Origin: an uncultured Bdellovibrionales bacterium
Lineage (GTDB): Bacteria > Patescibacteriota > Minisyncoccia > Moranbacterales > DUUL01
Reading direction: 5' to 3'
DNA length: 64,000 bases
Assembly (NCBI GenBank): GCA_964346295.1
Contig: CAYFUG010000004.1
Coordinates: forward strand, 532-64,531
Below are positions 9,128 through 60,672 of the stretch, piece after piece. Position 1 is the stretch's first letter. Each line of letters starts with the position of its first letter. Under the pieces are notes generated by a model that saw nothing but the letters and a program-made list of their open reading frames with translations, made no database searches and was not told the DNA's origin. Position numbers and translations under genes: made by a program.

Positions 9128-9156
9128 TTGACAAGGTTTCAAAAATATGCTACACT
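9128..9156 (+). promoter_or_regulatory. Module 1 promoter P2
   Basis: TTGACA, 17-nt spacer, TGcTACACT. Followed by GTCAAGCTAAGAAAAGG (9162-9178), almost identical to 28912-28928 and 59154-59170. Confidence 0.7.
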
Positions 9157-9958
9157 GTATCGTCAAGCTAAGAAAAGGATTCAGGCGAGCACCTTAAAAG
9201 CACTATCATAAATTATTCTTTGAGGAGAGAGTAATCTATAAAAAGAGTTTAACAATTGGACCTTGAGGGCTAAAAAGATTTTTAAATTAGCTCCCTAGAA
9301 AGGTTGTTATTCAAATTAGATTACAAAGCGGATTTATTTCTCTCTCAAAGTTTTTTCATCGTTTTCTCATCGGCAAGAACGATGGGAACCGACAAGAGGT
9401 GGGAATGAATCCGTTTTTTATTGCTTTTGTGGCAAGCCCGATGGAGGAGAGAGTTAAAATCCAAAAGTTTCCGCGGTTACGAAGTCATAACTATTGAATC
9501 GCGAGAAAGTATTGGCCGTAGTTTTTTCTACACCTTCATCGGGCTTCTCGCAAAGTCGAGGAGCGATTCTCAGCGAAGAATCACTGAACCCAATTTAGAG
9601 CGTTTTAACAGCGCTCCTACAAAGAACCTTACAATCAGGAATTTCTAGAATTTATCTAAAAATTCCTAAAACAAATGTTTAAGCTTTGCTTTTGAAAAAC
9701 CTCCCCGCCGCTATTAACGCTTTGGCGGGGTGCTAAGCAAATCTAATTCTCACTCAGCCTTCAAGGCTGGCTCGGATTGATTTGTTGGCAGAGGAGAGAG
9801 GCTCTAGCAGAAAACTAGAGTTCCCGAGAGGAGAGAGCAAGGTCGAATCATGAACATTTCTTTTGTTTTAGCCGGTCTTTTATAAAGACGGGCGGACATC
9901 TGCCGGTAAGAAGTTTCAACGCAAATTTCTTGCTGGTGATGTCTCTCAACGGAGAGAC

Positions 9959-25342: not shown

Positions 25343-28009
25343 GTGGAGAGACTTGTTGTCGATAGAAGTGAAGAGAAGAGAAACGGACCGGAAAGAAATC
25401 CGGGGTTTTTTCAGTTAGCTGCTTATCCAAAAGAAGATTGGGATTTGTTAAGGGCTGTGAATAAGGTGTTGTCGAAAGATAGTAGTCGAGTTTATGGTTT
25501 GCAGAGGGCTTTATTGGATTATCCCGAACTAGGGAACGAAGAGACAAAGGAGGTAATTTTAGAAAAGATGGAAGAAGAACTTTTAAGCATTTATTCTGAT
25601 GATTTAAGACTGGAAAATGGAATAAACTCGATAAAAGATGCTTTTGAGGGAATAAGGGGGATTTATTTAGGGAAAATAGAGACAGAGAAGGTTGTGATCG
25701 AGCGAGTCAACCAGCTTTACCCAGCGGAGTTGGAAGCCTTTGAGGATTTATTGGGCGACTTTATAGTTTATAAAAAAGTTTTACCTAAAGATGTTATTCA
25801 GGCAATTTACAGAAATAGGCTAGAGAAAATTGGAAATGTAAATCTTAATAATCTTTTTAGTTATGGAGATGTAGGCTTAGAAAAAGAGTGTTTAGGGGTT
25901 AATGAAAGAATTTTTGAAGCTCTAGAGGAGCTAGCCTTGTTTTCTGATATTTCCGAAGGTCAGAAAGCGGAACTTTTTCAGTCAGTGGCAAGGGGGTTAT
26001 TTGGAAGGGAAAAAAAGTTTTTTGTAGACCCAGAAAAGGCTTTGAGATTTGTAAGAGTCACTTTTCAAAGTCCAGAGACCAAGCGCTATGCCAAGCCACT
26101 TTTCATGAATTATTGGTGGGAGTGGGAGAATGCTATTGAAAAAATGCAGTCAGAAATTGATTTTGAAGATCAGAGCAAGGAGAATATTAGGAAAATAGCA
26201 GAGTTGGCGGAAATTTACGGGGCAGTTTACGGAGAATTGATAAAGAGGGGAATCGAACCTAATAATGATGGGGCAGTTTACATGTTGAATTTTATTAACC
26301 AGGCGGGAGGAGTAGACGATTTTTACCTTAACTTAAAGGTTAAGCAAGCCGTTTTTCTTATTCAGGCTGATGCTTGCCTTTATTATGAGGAAGGCGAGGA
26401 TTGGCAAAAGGAAGGAAGGGCGCAGTTGATTTATAGTGCGGCTCAAACTTTGGGAACTGATCTGCAGCTTAGTGGCGAGGAGCTGCAGCAATTTTTAACT
26501 GATATAAAAGGTTTTTTTGGGCAAAAATTAACTGCCGAAATTGAACCTCTTGTTAAGGGGCAGGTGGCAGCTCCGGGAGTAGAAGGGCATTTTGATGATG
26601 ATTTTGATCTGGTGCTACTGGAGGAGGAGAGAGGCAATGAAGGTGATAGGCTGAAGTTTAGCGAATTTATTAAGTTGAATTACTACGATGTTATTGAAGA
26701 GGGCGATTTTCTGGATTTGATGTTTATGCAAAATTTATTCATCAAGAAGCGAATTTCCCAGGAGTTAGGCGTGGCTTTGCATAACTTAGAGTTGAGAGCT
26801 CAGAATCAGTTTTTAAACTTCATTAAAAATGCCTCCCAGGAGAGAGTGAGACAAGTGGCAGAATTCGTAAAAAATCCAGCAGAAGAAGAGCAGCGCTTAA
26901 ACCGCCTGAGAGTCTTTCTTTCCTTGGAAGAGGGCCATTTTTCAGGAGATCAGCTATTGGACTTGCCTTCCAGGATTGATGCTGACCAAGCGCAGCAAGT
27001 TTTTGACCAGTATGGGAGACTGGTTCAAGACGCTTTTTCGGAGCAGTCGACCCTTCAAGAAGTGCTAAAGAATCCGGAGGATTTGGCCAAAATTGATCAA
27101 GAAAAAATCACTCAAAATTTGCTCTTCCGAGGCCAAAAAATCCTTCAAAGGCTAATTGAGTCTAGCGAGCCAGAGAGAGAGGCAGAAAGTGTTTTATCCA
27201 GCCTTTTAGCACAAAAATGGCAAATTCAACTAGCGGGAGCAGTTTTTAGGGAAGGGATCGAGGCTGGGATGAGTTTAGATGATTTAGAGGGTGGCAGAAT
27301 TGAGGTTTTAACCGTCCAAGACTTAATTCAAAAACCAGAATTGGTGGCTAAAATGAGGGATATTTATTCTAATAATTTCTCCAAAAAACCTGATTTGCAA
27401 GGAGCGGTTTTGCAAGGATTTGATCAAAAAATGACAGAAGGAGGCGTTAATTCGGAGTTTGCTTTGGCCTTTGTGGGCGAAGAATTGGTGGCTTTTAGCC
27501 GCAGTGATCATGTAGACGAAAAAACTCGCTATTTTGCTTCTCTAAACTCTTCTTATGGCGGTGCCAAGTTTGGAGAAGCTCTGAGGAGGAAAAGAGAGGC
27601 TCAGGTGGGAGAAAATTTTGATATTCGGGCTCATAGTGAGCCAGAAAGTGCCATGAGTACGCTGTATATTGGCCCAGAGGGAGGATTTATAGCCGATGGG
27701 GTAGAATTTAATTATCACAACACCGAGGCTAATTTATTCAGTATTACTAGACAAAAAACCCCGCCCAGTTACTATGCTTGGAGTAAGCCTCGAGAAGAGC
27801 TAGTCAAAGAGGCGAAAGAACTTGCGGATAGTGAGATAAGTAGCATTTCTCTAGAAAAGGGTAAGCCTCTGGTTTTAAGCCTCCAGGGGCTAGAAAATAC
27901 ACTAGTGGCACTAAAAACCCTACTCAATGAGCAGGGCGGCCAGTTGACCAATTATTGGTTTCAGGGCGGAAGATATTTTTTAGCTATAGAAAACCCTAAA
28001 TCAAGCTAA
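25343..28009 (+). CDS. Large hypothetical protein (up to 888 aa)
   Basis: Long ORF with a GTG track start; the first ATG is at 25568. No motif recognised. Confidence 0.7.
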   Translation: MERLVVDRSEEKRNGPERNPGFFQLAAYPKEDWDLLRAVNKVLSKDSSRVYGLQRALLDYPELGNEETKEVILEKMEEELLSIYSDDLRLENGINSIKDAFEGIRGIYLGKIETEKVVIERVNQLYPAELEAFEDLLGDFIVYKKVLPKDVIQAIYRNRLEKIGNVNLNNLFSYGDVGLEKECLGVNERIFEALEELALFSDISEGQKAELFQSVARGLFGREKKFFVDPEKALRFVRVTFQSPETKRYAKPLFMNYWWEWENAIEKMQSEIDFEDQSKENIRKIAELAEIYGAVYGELIKRGIEPNNDGAVYMLNFINQAGGVDDFYLNLKVKQAVFLIQADACLYYEEGEDWQKEGRAQLIYSAAQTLGTDLQLSGEELQQFLTDIKGFFGQKLTAEIEPLVKGQVAAPGVEGHFDDDFDLVLLEEERGNEGDRLKFSEFIKLNYYDVIEEGDFLDLMFMQNLFIKKRISQELGVALHNLELRAQNQFLNFIKNASQERVRQVAEFVKNPAEEEQRLNRLRVFLSLEEGHFSGDQLLDLPSRIDADQAQQVFDQYGRLVQDAFSEQSTLQEVLKNPEDLAKIDQEKITQNLLFRGQKILQRLIESSEPEREAESVLSSLLAQKWQIQLAGAVFREGIEAGMSLDDLEGGRIEVLTVQDLIQKPELVAKMRDIYSNNFSKKPDLQGAVLQGFDQKMTEGGVNSEFALAFVGEELVAFSRSDHVDEKTRYFASLNSSYGGAKFGEALRRKREAQVGENFDIRAHSEPESAMSTLYIGPEGGFIADGVEFNYHNTEANLFSITRQKTPPSYYAWSKPREELVKEAKELADSEISSISLEKGKPLVLSLQGLENTLVALKTLLNEQGGQLTNYWFQGGRYFLAIENPKSS

Positions 28010-28762
28010 TTTTCGGGAATAATCCCAGTGAAATTCGAACAGGGATTTGTGCATTTGGTAAATATTGGGATCTTGGATTAGCATAGCGATTTTGTGTTCT
28101 TCTGAAAGGGAGATGTAAATGACTTTTCCTTCGTAAATTTGCATTACAGAACCCGAGAAGGGGTATTTTTCTTGATCAATAAGCTTAATTTCTGTAATAT
28201 CTCGCAGATAATTTTGCAAGTAATTTTTGGCAAAGGCAGAGTCCAGGACCAGAACCTTTTTGTTAAGGTTAAGCTTGGATCTTTTTTTCATGTAGCACTG
28301 ATTGATTTTTTCGGTGTATTTGATAACAGCCTCCAGGTCGGCATAAGTGTAAATAATTTCTTGACTGGTGAGAGTGTCTTCCAGGGCCTCTTGAATGCCT
28401 TCTAGTCCCTCAAAATAGCGGACGTCAGGTTTCTGAGAAACTAAATTAAATTCTGATGTCAGTGCATCTAGATTGGCCGCTAGGTTTTTATGAGTTTTTT
28501 CTAGTTGGGAAGATTGATCGCGGAGTAATTCTTCTAATTGATTAGGGTGTTGAGGATAAAAATGAGTCAATTTTCCCTTTTTTTTGCTAATTACCAGGCT
28601 TTTTTCTTCTAAAGATTCTAAAACATTGTAAACCACCCCCTTTTGGAGGGTGGTTTTTTTAATGATTTCGCTGGCAGGAACTGCTCCAGAGCGAAGCAGG
28701 AATTCGTAAATAGTGGCTTCATTAGGGGTCAGTCCAACTTGAGTAAGGATGTCTTGGTACAT
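28001..28762 (-). CDS. TrmB-family transcriptional regulator (paralog 1)
   Basis: N-terminal wHTH GLTPNEATIYEFLLRSGAVPASEIIKKTTLQKGVVYNVLESLEEKSLV. Divergent from the module 2 promoter. Confidence 0.8.
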   Translation of the reverse strand: MYQDILTQVGLTPNEATIYEFLLRSGAVPASEIIKKTTLQKGVVYNVLESLEEKSLVISKKKGKLTHFYPQHPNQLEELLRDQSSQLEKTHKNLAANLDALTSEFNLVSQKPDVRYFEGLEGIQEALEDTLTSQEIIYTYADLEAVIKYTEKINQCYMKKRSKLNLNKKVLVLDSAFAKNYLQNYLRDITEIKLIDQEKYPFSGSVMQIYEGKVIYISLSEEHKIAMLIQDPNIYQMHKSLFEFHWDYSRKLA

Positions 28763-28877: not shown

Positions 28878-28906
28878 TTGACAATTTTTTAATAATATGC
28901 TACAAT
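28878..28906 (+). promoter_or_regulatory. Module 2 promoter (consensus sigma70, extended -10)
   Basis: TTGACA, 17-nt spacer, TGcTACAAT. A/T-rich upstream tract. Followed by GTCAAGCTAAGAAAAGG (28912-28928). Confidence 0.75.
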
Positions 28907-29129
28907 GCCTTGTCAAGCTAAGAAAAGGGTAAAACTCCGAAGCTTGAAGAACTGAAAGGTTCTAGCCAAATAAGAATAGTTGGCTCTTAGTACATTATAT
29001 CGAGAATAACCACACAACACAAACCACAGGAAAGTTTCTTGCAAGGCTTTTCTAGAGGTGTTTTTTGTGTTGTGGAAACATTCTCTAGCAAGAGCCCTGC
29101 AAAAAACTCTCCTATCACGGGGAGTTTTT

Positions 29130-29154
29130 TGTTCTTTGAAAACTCAGAAATCAG
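29130..29154 (+). promoter_or_regulatory. boxA-like antitermination motif (module 2, leader copy)
   Basis: TGTTCTTTGAAAACTCAGAAATCAG. Preceded by a terminator-like hairpin at 29101-29130. Confidence 0.6.
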
Positions 29155-29172
29155 TAAAGTGGTTTTCTCCTA

Positions 29173-29785: not shown

Positions 29786-30072
29786 CGGCCGTTTTTCTGT
29801 CCCCCTTCAATTTGCTTTTGGCATTTAGGAGGGGGCAGCGCTGATTTCTGAGTAAGAGGGTTCAAGGAAGGCGGATTCACATTGTGCGTCCGCCTCCTTT
29901 TCTCAAATCTCAAGTTTAATTGAGGTTTGAGATGAAGGATTGCACCTTGAAAAATTTTCCCTATTTCTCCTTTCAATTGCCTTTTTTCACTTAGTGAAAA
30001 CAAATCCAACTTCGTTGATTGAAGTGAGGCAATTGACGATTTTCAACTGAAAAAAGGGAGAGGAGAAGGGGC

Positions 30073-30526: not shown

Positions 30527-31306
30527 ATGAAACGGATTTTTGTTGTCCCTATCAACGATGGGGAGGCGGTAGAGATTAGGAATCTCCTACAGGATGGCGG
30601 TGAAGTGGTTGTGGAAAGCGTCCTCCGTTGGGGAGCCCGATGGGAGAAGCTGGAACCGGAGGTGGTGGCGGAGATCGAAAGGCTTCGCTCCCTTAATCCG
30701 GGAGTTCAGATCTACGGCGTGGAGCTGGCCGGCCCCAATCAGTGGGGGGCTCGCAACATCGACCACCACAAGTACCAGGATGAGGATCGGAGTAATTCCA
30801 AGTCCTCCCTGGAGCAAGTGGCGGAGTTGTTGGGCGTCCAGCTGACCCGGCACCAATTTTTGGTTTCGGAGAATGACAAGGGTTGGATCCCGGCGCTAAT
30901 AGCGGCCGGAGCCAGTCCCGACGAGATCGAACTGGTGCGGGCGCAGGATCGCCAGGCCCAGGGGGTTACCCCTGACGACGAAGCCCAGGCTCTTCGGGAT
31001 ATCGAGGCGGCCCAGTGGCAAGGTCGGAAGGTCTGGCTCCAGTGTCTCAAGGGGGCCACCTCGGCCCACACTGACCGGCTCTTTGGTCAGTTTGACGAAG
31101 CCCTGACGGTGGATGGGGTCAACGGAAAGTGGATCTATTTTGGTCCGCGATCCGAAGATTTCTTCGCCCTCACCGAAGGGGGCACCGAAGGGATACGCTG
31201 GAAAAGCCCTCGACCAGGGGGGTACTCCGGGGCGGAAAAGCCCCAGGAGGAGACCCAGGAAGCAATCCGGAATTTTTTTGGGAGTAATTCCCTTACCTCT
31301 TTTTAG
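30527..31306 (+). CDS. GC-rich cargo protein 2c (259 aa), contains NIDHH motif; unknown function
   Basis: Start taken at the ATG after TAAGGAGGAGACACTT, 14 nt after the 2b stop. The track ORF 30119-31306 has an implausible N-terminal extension that overlaps 2b. Confidence 0.75.
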   Translation: MKRIFVVPINDGEAVEIRNLLQDGGEVVVESVLRWGARWEKLEPEVVAEIERLRSLNPGVQIYGVELAGPNQWGARNIDHHKYQDEDRSNSKSSLEQVAELLGVQLTRHQFLVSENDKGWIPALIAAGASPDEIELVRAQDRQAQGVTPDDEAQALRDIEAAQWQGRKVWLQCLKGATSAHTDRLFGQFDEALTVDGVNGKWIYFGPRSEDFFALTEGGTEGIRWKSPRPGGYSGAEKPQEETQEAIRNFFGSNSLTSF

Positions 31307-31457
31307 CTAAGACGCACTAAGGAGAAGGACAAAATCAGCGTCGGGTTCAGATGGGCTGGCGAGAACCTCGTTAGCCCATCCTTTCCTAGTTCAGCACTAA
31401 AGTGGTGGTGGGCTAAGAAGGGATTAACGAAAAATCACCAAAAAAGGAGGCCCCAAA

Positions 31458-32003: not shown

Positions 32004-32037
32004 TTCTGTCTACTTTCGATTTTCGTTCATTTCCAAT

Positions 32038-32084
32038 GGATCAGGTGTCATTGTGCATCTGATCCGGAATTCTGAGCTTAGCTC
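32038..32084 (+). promoter_or_regulatory. Conserved trailer element: hairpin plus CCGGAATTCTGAGCTT
   Basis: GGATCAGGTG...CATCTGATCC hairpin, then CCGGAATTCTGAGCTTAGCTC. Homologous to 60573-60616. Partly complementary to the transcript 5' end at 28914-28924. Confidence 0.5.
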
Positions 32085-32103
32085 TATTAAGAGGTAGGTT
32101 CAG

Positions 32104-32128
32104 CGTTCTTTAAAAACTCAGAAATCAG
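32104..32128 (+). promoter_or_regulatory. boxA-like motif (module 2, internal spacer copy)
   Basis: CGTTCTTTAAAAACTCAGAAATCAG. Confidence 0.55.
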
Positions 32129-32269
32129 GAAAATCCAACTTTCTATCTTTTCTCTTTGTCTTCTAAAAGTTGTTGGTTACCCGAGAGAATTTAATCTAGT
32201 TAATGAACTGAATTAGCCAGTTAAGTTTTTTTGGGCAACCAACAACCAAGGAAAGAGAAGGAGGAAGAC

Positions 32270-32518: not shown

Positions 32519-32703
32519 CCCTTACCTTAGAATTTTTTTGATTTCTAGGCCCTCTCCATCAGGCCTCCTGCGAAGTTAGCAGGTTTTAAAAATTTGGATG
32601 GTAGTCCGAGCGGCGGAAATGACTCAAAACTATCCGCAAAATTAGCCCTGACAATCAGGGCCGGCCGAGGCAAGCGCAATGCCGCTTTAGCCTAAGAGGC
32701 CAC

Positions 32704-32836
32704 CAAAAGGCCCGAAAGAGTCTGGCCAACGCGCTAAATCTTTCGGAGGGACGAACTTGTTGAACACAACATTTTCGTCCCCTCTACTAGCAACTTAATT
32801 TGAGACTTGATCTTTTATTGAGTTGCTTGAGAGAAT
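32704..32836 (+). repeat. 133-bp direct repeat, copy 1 (structured element flanking cargo gene 2f)
   Basis: 131/133 identical to 34003-34135. Contains GGCCCGAAAGAGTCTGGCC and GAGGGACGAA...TTCGTCCCCTC hairpins. Confidence 0.9.
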
Positions 32837-32852
32837 CTATTTTGAAAGGCGA

Positions 32853-32864
32853 GTTCTTTGAAAT
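32853..32864 (+). promoter_or_regulatory. Short boxA-core-like string
   Basis: GTTCTTTGAAAT. Only the core is conserved. Confidence 0.35.
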
Positions 32865-32924
32865 ATATCCAAAGCTTCATTGTAATCTTTGGGTACTTCA
32901 ACCAAACCAGAAAAGGGGGATGCC

Positions 32925-33971
32925 ATGGGTAAATTTCAGGAAATCACACTGGAATTATTGTTGGAAAATGAAGTTTTGAGGAAGTATCTTCTCAAGGCAA
33001 GAATTGGTCCAGCTAAAAAAGGCGACGGTGCTTTTGTGGGGACTTATGATATTGCCCCGAAGGAGTTTCGGAGTTTTGGAATTGTTTTGCCCAGGGGCGG
33101 GATGATTATTCCAGGGGCAGATCCTGTCAAGTTAAAGGAAATGGTCAAGGAGCCTGAGCGCCGGCGTGAGGCGGAGGACTTGGCAAATCGTCGTGCTGTT
33201 GAAAAAGATTATCTCAATCAGGTGAAAGAGATAATTGCTGAAGCTGGCCTCACGGATATTGAAGTGGTGGAAGAAGACGGAGTGGACTTCCATAGTATCG
33301 GCGCCACCAGCTGGCACAAGAGCTTTTTGGTAAGAGAAGGAGAGAAAATCTTCAGTCTTCACAGCGAAGAGGAGCCGTATCGTGGCTTAGATGACGATGG
33401 TTCGTACGAGCCGTGGAGGACGGAGTTTACTCCGTTGGAAGAGGTGAAATCCTTCCTTGAAGAGGAGGCGCGTCTTGTTGGTCCGAGAAAAATGTTTGCT
33501 GATCGGATCAGGCGGCTTATTGATATAAGCCACAATGTTGGTCAGCAAGGGCCAGATGAAACTGGCTGGGATCGCCCTCGAGTGGAATTATTTTTGTACG
33601 ATGACTATAAAAAAGGCAGGGACTGGGGTTTTTTCGGTCATCGTTGTCAGGGTATCTCTTCGGCCCACAGGATTTACTATCGAAAAAAACTCTATGAGAT
33701 TACCGAAGAAGGCATTTCTCGCCTTGAGTATGAAATCGGAGAAAGGGAGGAGGCGCTAGAAGCAAGACGAGCGATGCTCAAAAGACTCTTCGAAGAGAAG
33801 GGCAGAGTTTTTGAGGAACTCAAAGAAGAGAAAGATTGCTATGCCGGAAAGTCACTGGCAACCGGCAAGGCAAAGTACGATGAGTGGACTGAAACGCGCT
33901 ACTTTCTCGGCGACACAGAAGTTACCGAGGAAGAGCGTGATTGGCTGAAGGGCTTACCTAAGGATAATTAG
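32925..33971 (+). CDS. Cargo protein 2f (348 aa), Glu/Arg-rich, unknown function
   Basis: AAAAGGGGGATGCC-ATG. The track start at 32889 is a TTG. Confidence 0.75.
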   Translation: MGKFQEITLELLLENEVLRKYLLKARIGPAKKGDGAFVGTYDIAPKEFRSFGIVLPRGGMIIPGADPVKLKEMVKEPERRREAEDLANRRAVEKDYLNQVKEIIAEAGLTDIEVVEEDGVDFHSIGATSWHKSFLVREGEKIFSLHSEEEPYRGLDDDGSYEPWRTEFTPLEEVKSFLEEEARLVGPRKMFADRIRRLIDISHNVGQQGPDETGWDRPRVELFLYDDYKKGRDWGFFGHRCQGISSAHRIYYRKKLYEITEEGISRLEYEIGEREEALEARRAMLKRLFEEKGRVFEELKEEKDCYAGKSLATGKAKYDEWTETRYFLGDTEVTEEERDWLKGLPKDN

Positions 33972-34002
33972 TGGATAAGGCCCTCAAGACTCTTCAAATT
34001 TT

Positions 34003-34135
34003 CAAAAGGCCCGAAAGAGCCTGGCCAACGCGCCAAATCTTTCGGAGGGACGAACTTGTTGAACACAACATTTTCGTCCCCTCTACTAGCAACTTAATTT
34101 GAGACTTGATCTTTTATTGAGTTGCTTGAGAGAAT
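34003..34135 (+). repeat. 133-bp direct repeat, copy 2
   Basis: See 32704-32836. There are two substitutions between the copies. Confidence 0.9.
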
Positions 34136-34169: not shown

Positions 34170-34204
34170 AAAAAAGCGCCGGTATTAGTCCCGGCGCTTT
34201 TTTA
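34170..34204. terminator. Strong bidirectional intrinsic terminator (end of module 2; also downstream of gyrA)
   Basis: AAAAAAGCGCCGG-TATTAGTC-CCGGCGCTTTTTT. Confidence 0.8.
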
Positions 34205-55944: not shown

Positions 55945-56360
55945 AAACTAAAATACTACAATTCCTAGTCGCTTGGTCTAGCTTTGTCTAGATCAAGAGG
56001 AAAGTCTGGACACCAGCCGGCTTTCAATTGGAAGCCAGTTAAAAGGGTAATCGGTAACGCCGATCGGGCTCGATGTGAGTCGAGTCAAGGGATAGCGCCG
56101 CAGAGACAATACTAGTTAATGCTCTGCATTAACGAAAGGTGAAAAGTGTCGAGGGGCTCATTTCTTCGGAATTTGAGCTACTCGACTCGGCTATTGGCGA
56201 CAATAGTTTGTGGCAAGCCCTACCCGGTGCAAGGCCGTGTCTTCTCGTAAAAGAGAGGAAGTGCCGCTAAAGTTCAGCAGTGATGTTGAATGTAGATAAA
56301 TGACTAGGCCAATTTACTTTGGTAGATTGGTACAGAATCCGGCTTATTTTATCTAGTTTT
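55945..56360 (+). ncRNA. rnpB: RNase P RNA (bacterial type A-like)
   Basis: GAGGAAAGTCTGG (55997-56009) and ACAGAATCCGGCTTA (56332-56346) form the universal P4 strands. P1 pairing is AAACTAAAATA / TATTTTATCTAGTTT. GC-rich relative to its surroundings. Confidence 0.85.
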
Positions 56361-56658
56361 CAGTTAGTAGTTTTCAGTTTTTAGGCCGCATGGAGGCAGC
56401 GCAGGTTATAGAAGCGAGTCCTTTGTAAAAATCTCGAGCGTTGTTTACAGCTTTCTTTATTAGTAGAACACCTCTATTTTTCTTCATGAGGCATTTTGTC
56501 TCCTATATAAGGCAATAAACGCCGTCATTAAAACTGGAGCGGTTTGAAATTGAAATTTAAAAATGTAAACAACGCTAAGGAATCTTACAAGTTATTTCTT
56601 ATCTTGAATTTTCTGGTGTAGTATATGCTGAGCTAAGATAGAAAATAAAATCAAAAGA

Positions 56659-59119: not shown

Positions 59120-59148
59120 TTGACAAATATTAATTATTATGCTACAAT
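59120..59148 (+). promoter_or_regulatory. Module 3 promoter (consensus sigma70, extended -10)
   Basis: TTGACA, 17-nt spacer, TGcTACAAT. A/T-rich upstream. Followed by GTCAAGCTCAGAAAAGG (59154-59170). Confidence 0.75.
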
Positions 59149-59260
59149 GCTCTGTCAAGCTCAGAAAAGGTTCAGATTCGTGGGTTTTGATTGTTGGAAT
59201 AATTTTGAGATCCGGAAAAAGGCTTAAAAAGCTTTTCTCGGGCTCTCAAAGCAGAGCCTA

Positions 59261-59285
59261 GGTTCTTTGAAAACTTAGAAATCAG
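59261..59285 (+). promoter_or_regulatory. boxA-like antitermination motif (module 3)
   Basis: GGTTCTTTGAAAACTTAGAAATCAG. Confidence 0.6.
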
Positions 59286-59324
59286 TTACTTCGAGATTCT
59301 TACTTGGAAATTGATAAAGAGGGT

Positions 59325-59420: not shown

Positions 59421-60554
59421 ATGAAAAAAATTTTTTTATACAGTCCGGGCGCGGATCTGCTCCTTTCCTGGGGCGCTCATTTGATCGAACGGCCTGATCT
59501 GTCAATCGAACGGGACATGCTCGCGGGCGCGATCAGCGAATGGAACCGGAACGAATTGCTGGCGGATTTCCTGGAATCCTGGCCGACCATGCTGGAAGAC
59601 GCCAACAAGGCGCAAGCGTTTTTTGAAGCTCGTCCCGTCATTCCCAATGATTTCACCGATCCTGACTGGAATGAGGCCATTGACGCCCTGCGGGCGTTCG
59701 ACCAGGTCGTTCATCTGTGGGTCGCGGTCGAAGACTTGTTCAGTGACAACGCGCCGGAAGTCATCGACGAACTGGAAGGCCGTTGTTACGACATTTCCGA
59801 ATGGCTTGACAACGCCGAATCGTTTACCAGCCTTCGTCTGGCCCCCTTGAACGAATGGCGGAAAAACCGGATTGAACGCGTCGAAGCGTCTTCCCGGTTC
59901 CTGTTTCCCTGGCTTGCCGATATGGCATGGGCCCCCGCCGACGCGCTGGAACAGCTTGAAGCCCATTGGAACGCGGTTCGGGAAAAAGGCGTTGGCGGCC
60001 TTTCATTTATCGCCGAGCCGGACCGCCTCATTTTCTGGGATTATTTAAAACGCGACATCGGGCTTCAGCAGGAAATGGAAAACCGCCGGCGGCTGGACAT
60101 CGCCATCGCCGACGCCGTGGATCAGAGCCTTCCGCTTCAACTGTTGCGGGTATACGAGAAGCATGTGCAAATATCCGACGTGCCGGAACACGTCCTTCGC
60201 CATGGACTGGCCAACGCGGCCTGCGCCGCCCTGACGGGCGACCGGCATGACGAAGCGTCCCATGAAGACCTGGGCCCCGCCCTGGAAGCGGCCATGGCGC
60301 AAAACGCTCCCATCGAGCGCGTGCTGACGACCGCCCTTTGCGGCCCCTTTCTTACCGACGCCCAGCGGCTTGCCGCGTTCAAGCGGGCCGCGATGAAGCT
60401 GGAAAAAGACGTCTCGGTGGGCGGTTTGGAGGGAATCTTCACCCAGGTGGACCTATGGATGAAAAACGAACTGACGGACGGCGATTTTGCCGACGCGATG
60501 ATGGCCGCCTGGGACCGGATGGCGGAAAACGCCATGAAAGGAGGTGATAACTGA
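59421..60554 (+). CDS. GC-rich cargo protein 3 (377 aa), unknown function
   Basis: CAAGGAGGATATC-ATG. GC3-rich. Several shadow ORFs on both strands. Confidence 0.8.
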   Translation: MKKIFLYSPGADLLLSWGAHLIERPDLSIERDMLAGAISEWNRNELLADFLESWPTMLEDANKAQAFFEARPVIPNDFTDPDWNEAIDALRAFDQVVHLWVAVEDLFSDNAPEVIDELEGRCYDISEWLDNAESFTSLRLAPLNEWRKNRIERVEASSRFLFPWLADMAWAPADALEQLEAHWNAVREKGVGGLSFIAEPDRLIFWDYLKRDIGLQQEMENRRRLDIAIADAVDQSLPLQLLRVYEKHVQISDVPEHVLRHGLANAACAALTGDRHDEASHEDLGPALEAAMAQNAPIERVLTTALCGPFLTDAQRLAAFKRAAMKLEKDVSVGGLEGIFTQVDLWMKNELTDGDFADAMMAAWDRMAENAMKGGDN

Positions 60555-60572
60555 TTTCTAGTGGTTCTTTTC

Positions 60573-60616
60573 GGATCAGGCTCGCAATGCGCGCTTGGTC
60601 CGGAATTCTGAGCTTG
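60573..60616 (+). promoter_or_regulatory. Conserved trailer element: hairpin plus CCGGAATTCTGAGCTTG
   Basis: GGATCAGGC...GCTTGGTCC hairpin. TTCTGAGCTTG (60606-60616) is the exact reverse complement of CAAGCTCAGAA at the transcript 5' end (59156-59166). Confidence 0.55.
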
Positions 60617-60672
60617 TCTGGAGCAATTTGATTGCTTTAGGCAAGTTGAGAATTCTTGAGTGATATTTTTTC

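What the first reader, a model, noticed from the sequence alone, without database searches (positions are those of the whole stretch)
32704..34135. Near-identical 133-bp structured direct repeats flank the last cargo gene
The segments 32704-32836 and 34003-34135 differ at 2 of 133 positions and bracket the cargo gene at 32925-33971. Each copy folds into several hairpins (GGCCCGAAAGAGTCTGGCC; GAGGGACGAA...TTCGTCCCCTC; GCAACT...AGTTGC). The first copy is followed by a boxA-core string (32853) and the second by the operon terminator. The near-identity implies recent duplication or gene conversion. The arrangement would allow cassette gain or loss by recombination, or the element may be a repeated RNA processing or stability signal.
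Basis: seen in the sequence. Interest (0 to 1): 0.6.

Follow-up and report, generated by a model that had tools for sequence, protein, structure and literature searches.

The report
Duplicated three-hairpin RNA trailer flanking truncated gene
Two almost identical 133-base, three-hairpin segments really do flank the last gene of an operon in a candidate-phyla-radiation bacterium; they belong to a family of hairpin "trailers" that punctuate such operons, and the second copy marks a recent recombination joint that cut off the end of that gene.

Summary
Segments 32704-32836 and 34003-34135 differ at 2 of 133 bases, have sharp edges and unrelated flanks, and occur in four independent datasets, so this is not an assembly artefact. 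Each copy folds into three adjacent hairpins (z = -8.8), more stably on the transcribed strand.

Three facts are new:
- The bracketed gene is truncated. It has 348 aa, its 23 homologues have 402-541 aa, and the lost C-terminal domain has no remnant in the window.
- It has a different composition from the other five operon genes. It is also the only module without a significant leader-trailer helix.
- A covariance model built only from the two copies finds a diverged homologue (34.9 bits) in another candidate-phyla-radiation lineage. That homologue keeps the helices through 15 two-sided changes and ends 3 nt before a boxA-like motif upstream of a full-length homologue.

The same layout, a GC-rich hairpin abutting a longer hairpin and often followed by boxA, recurs after other genes here. 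In a relative, a hammerhead ribozyme sits where the second hairpin would be.

Best reading: an intercistronic RNA processing and stabilising trailer, recently duplicated by recombination that appended a truncated gene. The RNA function and the recombination route are inferred, not shown.

The parts
32704..32836 (+). Copy 1 of the 133-nt element (A1). Hairpin 1 is 32712-32746, hairpin 2 is 32748-32781, hairpin 3 is 32782-32833.
   Evidence: It begins 1-2 nt after the point where homology of the g5 trailer with the relative L018 ends.
34003..34135 (+). Copy 2 of the element (A2). Hairpins are 34011-34045, 34047-34080 and 34081-34132. The two differences are a G.U to G-C change in the inner stem of hairpin 1 and one internal-loop base.
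32853..32863 (+). boxA-like motif GTTCTTTGAAA, 16 nt after copy 1. It starts the leader of the truncated gene.
   Evidence: the motif occurs 5 times in the window against 0.42 expected, always on the + strand in leaders (9960, 29131, 32105, 32853, 59262).
32925..33971 (+). g6': a 348-aa, C-terminally truncated member of a protein family of unknown fold. Its GC3 is 0.48, against 0.59-0.76 for g1-g5.
33948..34002 (+). Junction segment X'. It covers the last codons (GLPKDN*) plus 31 nt and is unrelated to g6 homologues or to the flank of copy 1.
   Evidence: Nucleotide comparison with homologues, no C-terminal remnant, flank alignment.
34170..34203 (.). Bidirectional intrinsic terminator (A6-GCGCCGG-loop-CCGGCGC-T6) shared with the convergent gyrA.
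32519..32703 (+). Structured trailer of g5, about 90% identical to the relative L018. It contains the 3' half of the g5 leader-trailer helix (32529-32550).
28878..28906 (+). Operon promoter TTGACA-17-TACAAT, divergent from a TrmB-family regulator gene at 28001-28762(-).
29869..29938 (+). Twin hairpin after g1 (GC hairpin abutting a long AU-rich hairpin). Same layout as hairpins 2-3 of the element.
   Evidence: The covariance-model hits are marginal: 16.3 bits with R1 and 21.0 bits with R2.
31350..31421 (+). Twin hairpin after g3.
   Evidence: The R2 hit of 16.9 bits is marginal.
32031..32103 (+). Twin hairpin directly upstream of the boxA at 32105. In the homologous intergenic region of L018, a hammerhead takes the place of the second hairpin.
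60572..60655 (+). Twin hairpin after the gene 59421-60554 of a second boxA operon in the window.
   Evidence: The R2 hit of 21.6 bits is marginal.

Best explanation
The 133-nt element is a transcribed, sense-strand RNA module of three adjacent hairpins. It belongs to a family of hairpin 'trailers' that follow cistrons in boxA-bearing operons of this candidate-phyla-radiation (Patescibacteria) lineage.

Inferred function: the operon is read through as one long transcript, with boxA-like motifs presumably loading Nus factors. The transcript is cut between a cistron's trailer and the next boxA leader. The GC-rich hairpins then remain as the 3' end of the upstream fragment and protect it from 3' exonucleases. 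The long third hairpin is the likely cleavage substrate, for example for RNase III.

Inferred history: the two copies are near-identical because of one recent recombination event, not because two copies are needed. A compositionally distinct g6 module, consisting of the element, boxA, a leader and g6, was joined to an operon end that already carried the element plus a terminator. The route could have been homology-facilitated illegitimate recombination or Campbell-type integration of a circular fragment through the element. That event cut g6 at about codon 341.

Shown: the repeat, its fold, the truncation, the composition difference, the missing leader-trailer helix, the diverged homologue and the recurrent layout.

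Inferred: the RNA cleavage and protection role, Nus involvement and the exact recombination route.
For: Repeat and structure:
- The repeat and its sharp edges are confirmed.
- It is real in four datasets.
- The fold has z -8.8 on the + strand against -6.0 on the - strand, with three G.U pairs.
- Both substitutions are structure-neutral.

A diverged homologue:
- Model R1, built only from the two copies, hits L021 5781-5910 at 34.9 bits (E about 9e-7). The next best hit scores 20.2 bits.
- That hit ends 3 nt before a boxA that precedes a full-length g6 homologue.
- In the alignment, 98% of cells pair and 15 pairs change on both sides, against 1-3 in slid controls.

Recurrent layout:
- Twin abutting hairpins follow other cistrons in the window and in L024, often 0-16 nt before boxA.
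- A type III hammerhead (40.5 bits, E 5e-7) sits in the second-hairpin position upstream of the homologous boxA in L018.

Evidence for a recombination joint:
- g6' has 348 aa and its 23 homologues have 402-541 aa. DNA homology ends near 33948 and there is no C-terminal remnant.
- Where the downstream DNA was read, the homologue is followed directly by its own terminator (L005, L010/L012, L021, L029).
- g6' has GC3 0.48, against 0.59-0.76 for g1-g5.
- Leader-trailer helices are significant for g1 (z -6.5), g5 (z -3.3) and the gene at 59421 (z -4.1), but not for g6' (z -1.2).
Against: - No expression or RNA-end data exist, so cleavage and protection are pure inference.
- Only one homologue (L021/L022) is statistically solid. 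Other family members score 16-22 bits, no better than reverse-strand self hits, and rest on shared architecture.
- The compensatory counts come from a model-fitted alignment of three rows. Helix 1 of L021 competes with a stronger alternative hairpin.
- No ancestral allele with a single copy and no g6 was found. The closest relative's contig ends 7 nt past the boundary, and its gyrA locus lacks the island.
- The rest of the genome could not be searched for further copies.
Confidence: 0.55

Rival explanations
1. A recombination scar with no function of its own. The 133 nt are simply the stretch of homology through which a fragment carrying g6' was integrated, and the hairpins have no function at these two positions.
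For: The truncated gene, the distinct GC3 and the sharp edges. Only two copies are present.
Against: The fold is far more stable than chance and is strand-biased. A diverged homologue at the equivalent position keeps the helices through two-sided changes. The layout recurs after other cistrons.
Confidence: 0.17
2. A small non-autonomous mobile repeat (of MITE, REP or PATE type) that inserted twice into the operon, once inside g6.
For: It is a discrete unit with sharp boundaries and strong hairpins. Homology with the relative L018 stops at the left edge of copy 1. IS110 transposases neighbour g6 homologues in other loci.
Against: - There are no terminal inverted repeats and no consistent target duplication (direct reading of the flanks).
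- No remainder of g6 lies downstream of copy 2.
- There are no further near-identical copies in 64 kb or in the 19 related loci searched.
- tblastn found no IS110 transposase in the window.
- A strict hairpin-2 pattern found only chance matches in the three large collections.
Confidence: 0.1
3. A 5' cis-regulatory leader for g6, for example a boxB-like partner of boxA in an antitermination signal, or a riboswitch-like sensor.
For: Copy 1 lies 16 nt upstream of a boxA-like motif, and the L021 homologue lies 3 nt upstream of one. The hairpin-then-boxA order resembles rrn leaders (own knowledge; PMC10250234 abstract).
Against: Copy 2 is followed by a terminator, with no boxA and no gene. Twin hairpins of the same layout occur without boxA, at 29869, 31350 and 60572. 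There is no Rfam match even at E <= 10.
Confidence: 0.1
4. Site-specific recombination sites (attC-like) that delimit a mobile gene cassette.
For: A gene flanked by two structured repeats of about 130 bp superficially resembles a cassette in a chromosomal integron.
Against: - The element folds as three independent hairpins, not as one imperfect palindrome. Its ends are not complementary, and its 3' end is GAGAGAAT rather than GTTRRRY (sequence).
- No integrase or recombinase domain was found in the island proteins or in the called neighbours about 5 kb to the left and 8 kb to the right.
- The 'cassette' gene is a truncated fragment.
Confidence: 0.03
5. An assembly duplication artefact.
For: None found.
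Against: Independent assemblers and samples agree, and the contig break points match the SNP positions.
Confidence: 0.02

Closest known systems
Selective RNA processing and stabilisation stem-loops (Clostridium cellulolyticum cip-cel operon, PMC4423207) and protective RNA structures in E. coli operons (PMC5927463)
   Same: Stable stem-loops sit at the 3' ends of cistrons inside polycistronic transcripts. Their proposed role is to define processed fragments and protect them from decay.
   Different: - Here the module is a composite of two or three abutting hairpins, often coupled to a boxA-like motif and to leader-trailer helices.
- There are no transcript data.
- The host is a candidate-phyla-radiation bacterium.
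- The two copies studied are a recent duplicate.
rRNA-operon leader syntax (boxB hairpin, boxA, boxC, and a leader-trailer helix processed by RNase III; PMC10250234) and boxA upstream of CRISPR arrays (PMC7665894)
   Same: A hairpin is followed by a boxA-like motif. Complementary leader and trailer segments bracket the transcribed unit.
   Different: The bracketed units are protein-coding cistrons, not rRNA. Binding of boxA by NusB/NusE is untested. Copy 2 has no boxA.
REP/BIME and other intergenic repeats co-transcribed with operons (own knowledge)
   Same: Structured repeats within transcription units that can stabilise upstream mRNA and promote recombination.
   Different: REPs are imperfect palindromes of about 35 nt, present in hundreds of copies and linked to RAYT transposases. 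Here there are two near-identical copies of a 133-nt three-hairpin unit, and no transposase gene was found among the island and neighbouring genes examined.
Integron gene cassettes bounded by attC sites
   Same: A gene flanked by structured repeats of about 130 bp, within an array of compositionally mixed genes under one promoter.
   Different: There is no attC architecture and no integrase, the gene is truncated, and the flanking elements are RNA-type hairpin series.
Direct repeats left by Campbell-type integration or by homology-facilitated illegitimate recombination (own knowledge)
   Same: The A-B-A layout has sharp homology edges, a truncated gene at one joint, and slight divergence between the copies.
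   Different: The donor, the recipient and the intermediate are all hypothetical here.
Type III hammerhead ribozymes in bacterial intergenic regions (RF00008; PMC3088659)
   Same: In the relative L018, a hammerhead occupies the position between a GC hairpin and boxA that a plain hairpin occupies in the window.
   Different: The 133-nt element has no hammerhead core (no CUGAUGA, no Rfam hit). Any cleavage would need a host nuclease.

Membership tests
Intercistronic protective/processing stem-loop (SRPS type) | Lies on the sense strand inside a transcription unit, after a cistron | tested here: met
   Both copies lie between the promoter at 28878 and the terminator at 34170, on the + strand. Copy 1 is 185 nt after the g5 stop and copy 2 is 31 nt after the g6' stop.
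Intercistronic protective/processing stem-loop (SRPS type) | A stable secondary structure beyond chance, conserved through compensatory change | tested here: met
   z -8.8. In the L021 homologue, 15 pairs change on both sides, against 1-3 in slid controls. The alignment is model-fitted and has only three rows.
Intercistronic protective/processing stem-loop (SRPS type) | Processed RNA ends at the structure and unequal abundance of the flanking cistrons | not testable with these tools
   No transcriptome data are accessible.
Twin-hairpin trailer of boxA operons (defined here) | A GC-rich hairpin directly abutting a longer hairpin after a cistron, often 0-16 nt before boxA | tested here: met
   Both copies, window 29869-29938, 31350-31421, 32031-32103 and 60572-60655, L021 5833-5910, and L024 7784-7852 and 9637-9711. 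Sequence-level membership is significant only for L021.
rrn-type Nus antitermination signal (boxB-boxA) | A boxA motif closely downstream of the hairpin | tested here: inconclusive
   Met for copy 1 (32853) and for L021 (5914), but not for copy 2, which is followed by a terminator. The identification as boxA rests on resemblance to known consensus sequences.
rrn-type Nus antitermination signal (boxB-boxA) | NusB/NusE binding and read-through of terminators | not testable with these tools
   This needs biochemistry or reporter assays.
Integron attC site | A single imperfect palindrome (R''-L''...L'-R') with GTTRRRY at the 3' boundary | tested here: not met
   The element folds as three separate hairpins, its ends are not complementary, and its 3' end is GAGAGAAT.
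Integron attC site | An associated integron integrase or attI | tested here: not met
   No recombinase domain was found in the island proteins or in the called neighbours about 5 kb to the left and 8 kb to the right.
MITE / IS-derived repeat | Terminal inverted repeats and a target-site duplication | tested here: not met
   The ends are CAAAAGGCC... and ...GAGAGAAT. The flanks are GGCCAC|CTATTT for copy 1 and AATTTT|TTTGAT for copy 2.
MITE / IS-derived repeat | Many dispersed copies in the genome | tested here: inconclusive
   There are only two copies in 64 kb. The rest of the genome was not available. The collection scans used one strict pattern.
Any Rfam 15 family (riboswitches, ribozymes, group II intron domains, sRNAs) | A covariance-model match | tested here: not met
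   There is no hit covering a whole copy, even at E <= 10. The only overlaps are weak sub-threshold sRNA-type hits running from the last third of copy 2 into the terminator.
Diversity-generating retroelement TR/VR pair | A reverse transcriptase nearby, the variable repeat inside a target ORF, and mismatches at template adenines | tested here: not met
   No Pfam match to a reverse transcriptase was found in the island or neighbouring genes. Both copies are non-coding. There are only two mismatches.

The most novel reading that the evidence does not exclude
The hairpin trailer plus boxA leader may be a portable 'cistron adaptor' in candidate-phyla-radiation bacteria. On this reading it would do two jobs.

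First, it would punctuate a long antiterminated transcript. Cleavage would occur at the long hairpin, or by a hammerhead in some lineages. The GC hairpins would protect the new 3' end, and boxA would re-load Nus factors.

Second, because it is shared between islands, it would serve as the homologous anchor through which foreign, compositionally distinct genes are swapped in and out. That would amount to an integrase-free, recombination-driven cassette system, with the A-g6'-A arrangement as a caught-in-the-act example.
Probability: 0.12. Interest if true: 0.75.

Novelty: new variant of a known kind. Interest (0 to 1): 0.42.

Why it matters
If the reading is right, some operons of these little-studied, uncultivated bacteria are built from repeated RNA 'punctuation' units. 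Each unit consists of a trailer of abutting hairpins, sometimes a ribozyme, then an rRNA-type boxA leader and a leader-trailer helix around a single protein-coding gene. That would extend rRNA-style transcript handling to mRNAs. It would also give a concrete, testable set of processing sites in organisms for which almost no RNA biology is known.

The duplicated copy also records how a new gene fragment was grafted onto such an operon. The element itself matches no Rfam family, so it is a candidate new RNA motif.

If the reading is wrong, the finding reduces to an ordinary recombination-generated direct repeat.

Tried and rejected
- Rfam at gathering thresholds and at E <= 10: nothing covers a copy of the element.
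- Strict hairpin-2 pattern in the GTDB representative genomes, JGI metagenomes and IMG/VR: only one chance match each in the first two and none in the third.
- blastn of the element against phage and plasmid collections: no match.
- tblastn of a g6 homologue against phages, and a viral locus search: no match.
- Covariance model with default filters: missed the L021 homologue. Only the filters-off search found it.
- nhmmer profile of the g1 trailers against the window: the two copies scored E 1.7, which is not significant, so sequence-only homology to the g1 trailer is unproven.
- Unrestricted RNAduplex between whole intergenic regions: uninformative.
- Search for the ancestral or empty site through the closest gyrA relative: that genome has a different gene next to gyrA.
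- Cargo protein identity: no convincing Pfam, PHROG, NCBIfam, PADLOC or PDB sequence match, and no PDB fold match for an AlphaFold2 model with mean pLDDT 79. It shows no match to any recombinase or transposase.
- IS110 link: the transposase that neighbours g6 homologues in L010-L015 is absent from the window.
- Extension of the repeat into its flanks, microhomology at the joint, attC, MITE, DGR and group II intron domain V readings were all examined and rejected.
Full report
**The observation**

The two segments 32704-32836 and 34003-34135 are 133 nt each. They differ at two positions: T/C at repeat offset 18 and T/C at offset 32. The identity stops abruptly on both sides. Local alignment of the 40-80 nt on either side of the two copies is no better than for shuffled sequence (p 0.2-0.95). 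No further near-identical copy exists in the 64 kb window.

The copies bracket the ORF 32925-33971. A boxA-like GTTCTTTGAAA lies 16 nt after copy 1. A bidirectional terminator hairpin at 34170-34203 follows copy 2.

**It is not an assembly artefact**

The window is the reverse complement of a 65,022-nt JGI contig (L026). Two MEGAHIT k127 contigs from two other samples of a microbial-mat project carry the same A-B-A arrangement at 100% identity (L001, L002).

Only 101 nt of the repeat are identical downstream of the second SNP. A 127-mer can therefore link each SNP variant to its own downstream flank.

Logan k31 contigs from three runs end at repeat offsets 62 and 104 (L003, L019, L028). That is where a k = 31 graph must branch, given SNPs at offsets 18 and 32.

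No contig with a deleted allele was retrievable. Reads could not be examined.

**Structure**

On the + strand each copy folds into three adjacent hairpins. The MFE is -55.3 kcal/mol for copy 1 and -57.6 for copy 2, and shuffles of copy 1 give -26.9 +/- 3.2 (z -8.8). Mean pair probabilities are 0.965-0.995 per hairpin.

The reverse strand is less stable (-48.5 kcal/mol, z -6.0). The + strand fold uses three G.U pairs. This fits an RNA in the sense of the operon.

One substitution turns a G.U pair into G-C in the inner stem of hairpin 1, and the other lies in an internal loop. With only two changes this is consistent with structural constraint but not significant.

Its first hairpin (GGCC...GGCC) is 6.6 kcal/mol worse than the favoured CCGAAAGA...TCTTTCGG stem. 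The three hairpins persist when each copy is folded in its context.

**Context**

The host is a Patescibacteria (candidate phyla radiation) bacterium. Its gyrA is closest to sequences labelled Candidatus Moranbacteria or Parcubacteria, and the window carries a bacterial RNase P RNA.

The element lies in a six-gene operon. The operon starts at a near-consensus promoter (28878) that is divergent from a TrmB-family regulator gene, and it ends at the terminator shared with gyrA. The genes are GC-rich (0.48-0.62) in a genome of 43% GC.

Five genes have no convincing family match. The third matches a DHH hydrolase model from defence-system catalogues (3e-31).

The motif GTTCTTTRAAA occurs five times in the window against 0.42 expected, always in + strand leaders. 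Three promoters share the same leader start.

Short leader and trailer segments are complementary and bracket single cistrons:
- g1: z -6.5
- g5: z -3.3
- the gene at 59421-60554: z -4.1

One pair differs between the g1 helix and the helix of the 59421 operon as C-G against U-A, read directly from the duplexes printed.

**The bracketed gene is a fragment**

Its 23 homologues are 402-541 aa when complete, and the window protein stops at 348 aa. Protein alignment shows that the C-terminal domain of about 125 residues is missing. DNA-level similarity to homologues ends near 33948, just after TGGCTGAA. tblastn finds no remnant of the lost domain anywhere in the window.

Where the downstream DNA was read, the homologue is followed directly by its own terminator: L005, L010/L012, L021 and L029. 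The exception is the short 402-aa homologue in L024, which is followed by another twin hairpin and a boxA-like motif.

The fragment has GC3 0.48, against 0.59-0.76 for the other five genes. It is also the only module without a significant leader-trailer helix (z -1.2).

The 55 nt between the end of homology and copy 2 resemble neither the homologues nor the flank of copy 1. Copy 2 therefore sits at a recombination joint.

**The element has relatives**

A covariance model built only from the two copies found nothing with default filters. With filters off it hit L021 5781-5910 on the + strand at 34.9 bits (E about 9e-7), and the next best score was 20.2 bits.

L021 comes from a different candidate-phyla-radiation lineage, where the g6 protein is 56% identical and the locus has 35% GC. 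It has the same island plan: a large unknown protein, then TrmB, then the operon. The hit lies between a g1 homologue and a full-length g6 homologue, and it ends 3 nt before a boxA-like motif.

In the model-derived alignment the two elements are 56% identical. 98% of cells pair, and 15 pairs differ on both sides, against 1-3 when partners are slid by 1-3 columns.

Two caveats apply. The alignment is fitted to the model and has three rows. Helix 1 of L021 competes with a stronger local hairpin.

A second model that included L021 gave only marginal further hits of 16-22 bits, no better than reverse-strand self hits. All of those hits lie on the sense strand just after cistrons.

Folding those places shows one recurring layout: a GC-rich hairpin directly abutting a longer hairpin, often 0-16 nt before boxA. 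The sites are:
- window 29869-29938
- window 31350-31421
- window 32031-32103
- window 60572-60655
- L021 5833-5910
- L024 7784-7852
- L024 9637-9711

A sequence-only profile of the g1 trailers does not find the element significantly (E 1.7). Membership of these other sites therefore rests on architecture, not on proven homology.

**A ribozyme in the same slot**

L018 is a 1.4-kb contig from a relative whose g5 is 73% identical. Its g5 trailer is about 90% identical to the window up to position 32702, after which its last 7 nt do not match the element.

Upstream of its g5 the leader is homologous to the window from boxA onward. The window has a GC hairpin plus a second hairpin just before boxA. 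L018 has a GC hairpin plus a type III hammerhead with an intact core. It scores 40.5 bits (E 5e-7), below the 48.5-bit gathering score because of a long stem II.

A self-cleaving RNA at that position implies that the transcript is cut between trailer and boxA leader. The cut would leave the GC hairpin at the new 3' end.

**Most likely mechanism**

The element is an intercistronic trailer. Its GC hairpins would protect the 3' end of the upstream fragment. Its long third hairpin (20 pairs) occupies the slot where cleavage occurs in the relative, and it is a plausible substrate for a double-strand-specific nuclease.

This is the logic of selective RNA processing and stabilisation described in Clostridium (PMC4423207), and of protective RNA structures in E. 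coli operons (PMC5927463). Here it would be combined with rRNA-like boxA and leader-trailer features (PMC10250234, PMC7665894).

The near-identity of the two copies reflects history rather than need. One option is that a g6 module beginning with the element was joined to an operon end that already carried the element and a terminator. The other is that a circular fragment integrated through the element. Either event truncated g6.

Which copy is ancestral cannot be decided. No allele with a single copy was found, and the closest relative's gyrA locus lacks the island.

**Rivals**

- A functionless scar is disfavoured by the fold statistics and the diverged homologue.
- A mobile repeat is disfavoured by the absence of terminal repeats, of target duplications and of further copies. 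The rest of the genome was not searchable.
- A g6-specific 5' regulator does not explain copy 2.
- An attC-like site fails on architecture and on the absence of an integrase.
- The artefact reading is excluded.

**Novelty and interest**

Direct repeats from recombination and protective intercistronic hairpins are both known kinds. Three things are new. The composite hairpin trailer has no Rfam family. It is coupled to boxA leaders and leader-trailer helices around protein-coding genes in candidate-phyla-radiation bacteria. A hammerhead substitutes for one hairpin in a relative.

The specific duplication is of modest interest. The operon punctuation it points to deserves follow-up with transcript-end data and a wider covariance search.

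Noticed in passing
L018:737-805 (JGI 3300037274 contig, relative of the window organism): A type III hammerhead ribozyme with an intact core (RF00008, 40.5 bits, E 5e-7, below the 48.5-bit gathering score because of a long stem II). It lies between a GC hairpin and a boxA-like motif inside an operon. The homologous position in the window (32072-32103) holds a plain hairpin.
   Followed up: partly
window 29128-29165 with 29832-29866; 32116-32137 with 32529-32550; 59265-59293 with 60540-60575: Leader-trailer complementarity brackets single protein-coding cistrons (duplex z -6.5, -3.3 and -4.1). The core is ACUCAGAAAUCAG / CUGAUUUCUGAGU, and one pair changes on both sides (C-G to U-A) between operons. 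This is reminiscent of rRNA leader-trailer helices.
   Followed up: partly
window 9128-9175, 28878-28925, 59122-59170: Three promoters share TTGACA-17-TAC(A/C)(A/C)T followed by a conserved leader start TCAAGCT(A/C)AGAAAAGG. Each has a boxA-like GTTCTTTGAAAA 140-830 nt downstream. The leader at 9128 is about 1 kb long and highly structured.
   Followed up: no
window 30527-31306 (+): The third operon gene matches the PADLOC models DHH_CorA (3e-31) and C3a116, which describe DHH-family hydrolases associated with type III CRISPR/CorA systems. A 30%-identical homologue sits in the L007 island.
   Followed up: no
L010-L015 (ENA contigs carrying protein P0002): A unit of about 4 kb appears in at least four different genomic contexts with shared boundaries. 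It consists of an IS110-family transposase, a boxA leader, a DEDDh-type exonuclease-like 177-aa gene and the full-length g6 homologue. This suggests that the gene pair travels with, or is targeted by, an IS110 element.
   Followed up: partly
window 25343-28762; L021:835-4949; L007:5850-8040: There is a conserved island 'head'. A large protein with no family match (888, 1129 and 474 aa) has a 3' end that overlaps the 3' end of a convergent TrmB-family regulator gene. That regulator is in turn divergent from the boxA operon promoter.
   Followed up: no
L005:11417-11425, L010:9285-9292, L021:7411-7420, L029:856-864: Full-length g6 homologues are followed immediately after the stop codon by (G)TTCTTT(G/T/A), a boxA-like string, and then by their terminator. 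Its meaning is unknown.
   Followed up: no
window 55953-56363 (+): Bacterial RNase P RNA class A (144.6 bits), with several insertions relative to the Rfam consensus.
   Followed up: no
protein family of window 32925-33971 (P0001-P0024): A family of 24 proteins found in the 5.8-billion-sequence protein collection. It has no Pfam, NCBIfam or PADLOC match, only a weak PHROG hit (E 0.09), and no PDB sequence match below E 0.45. Its AlphaFold2 model (mean pLDDT 79, with long helices and beta-rich domains) has no PDB fold match at E <= 0.001.
   Followed up: partly
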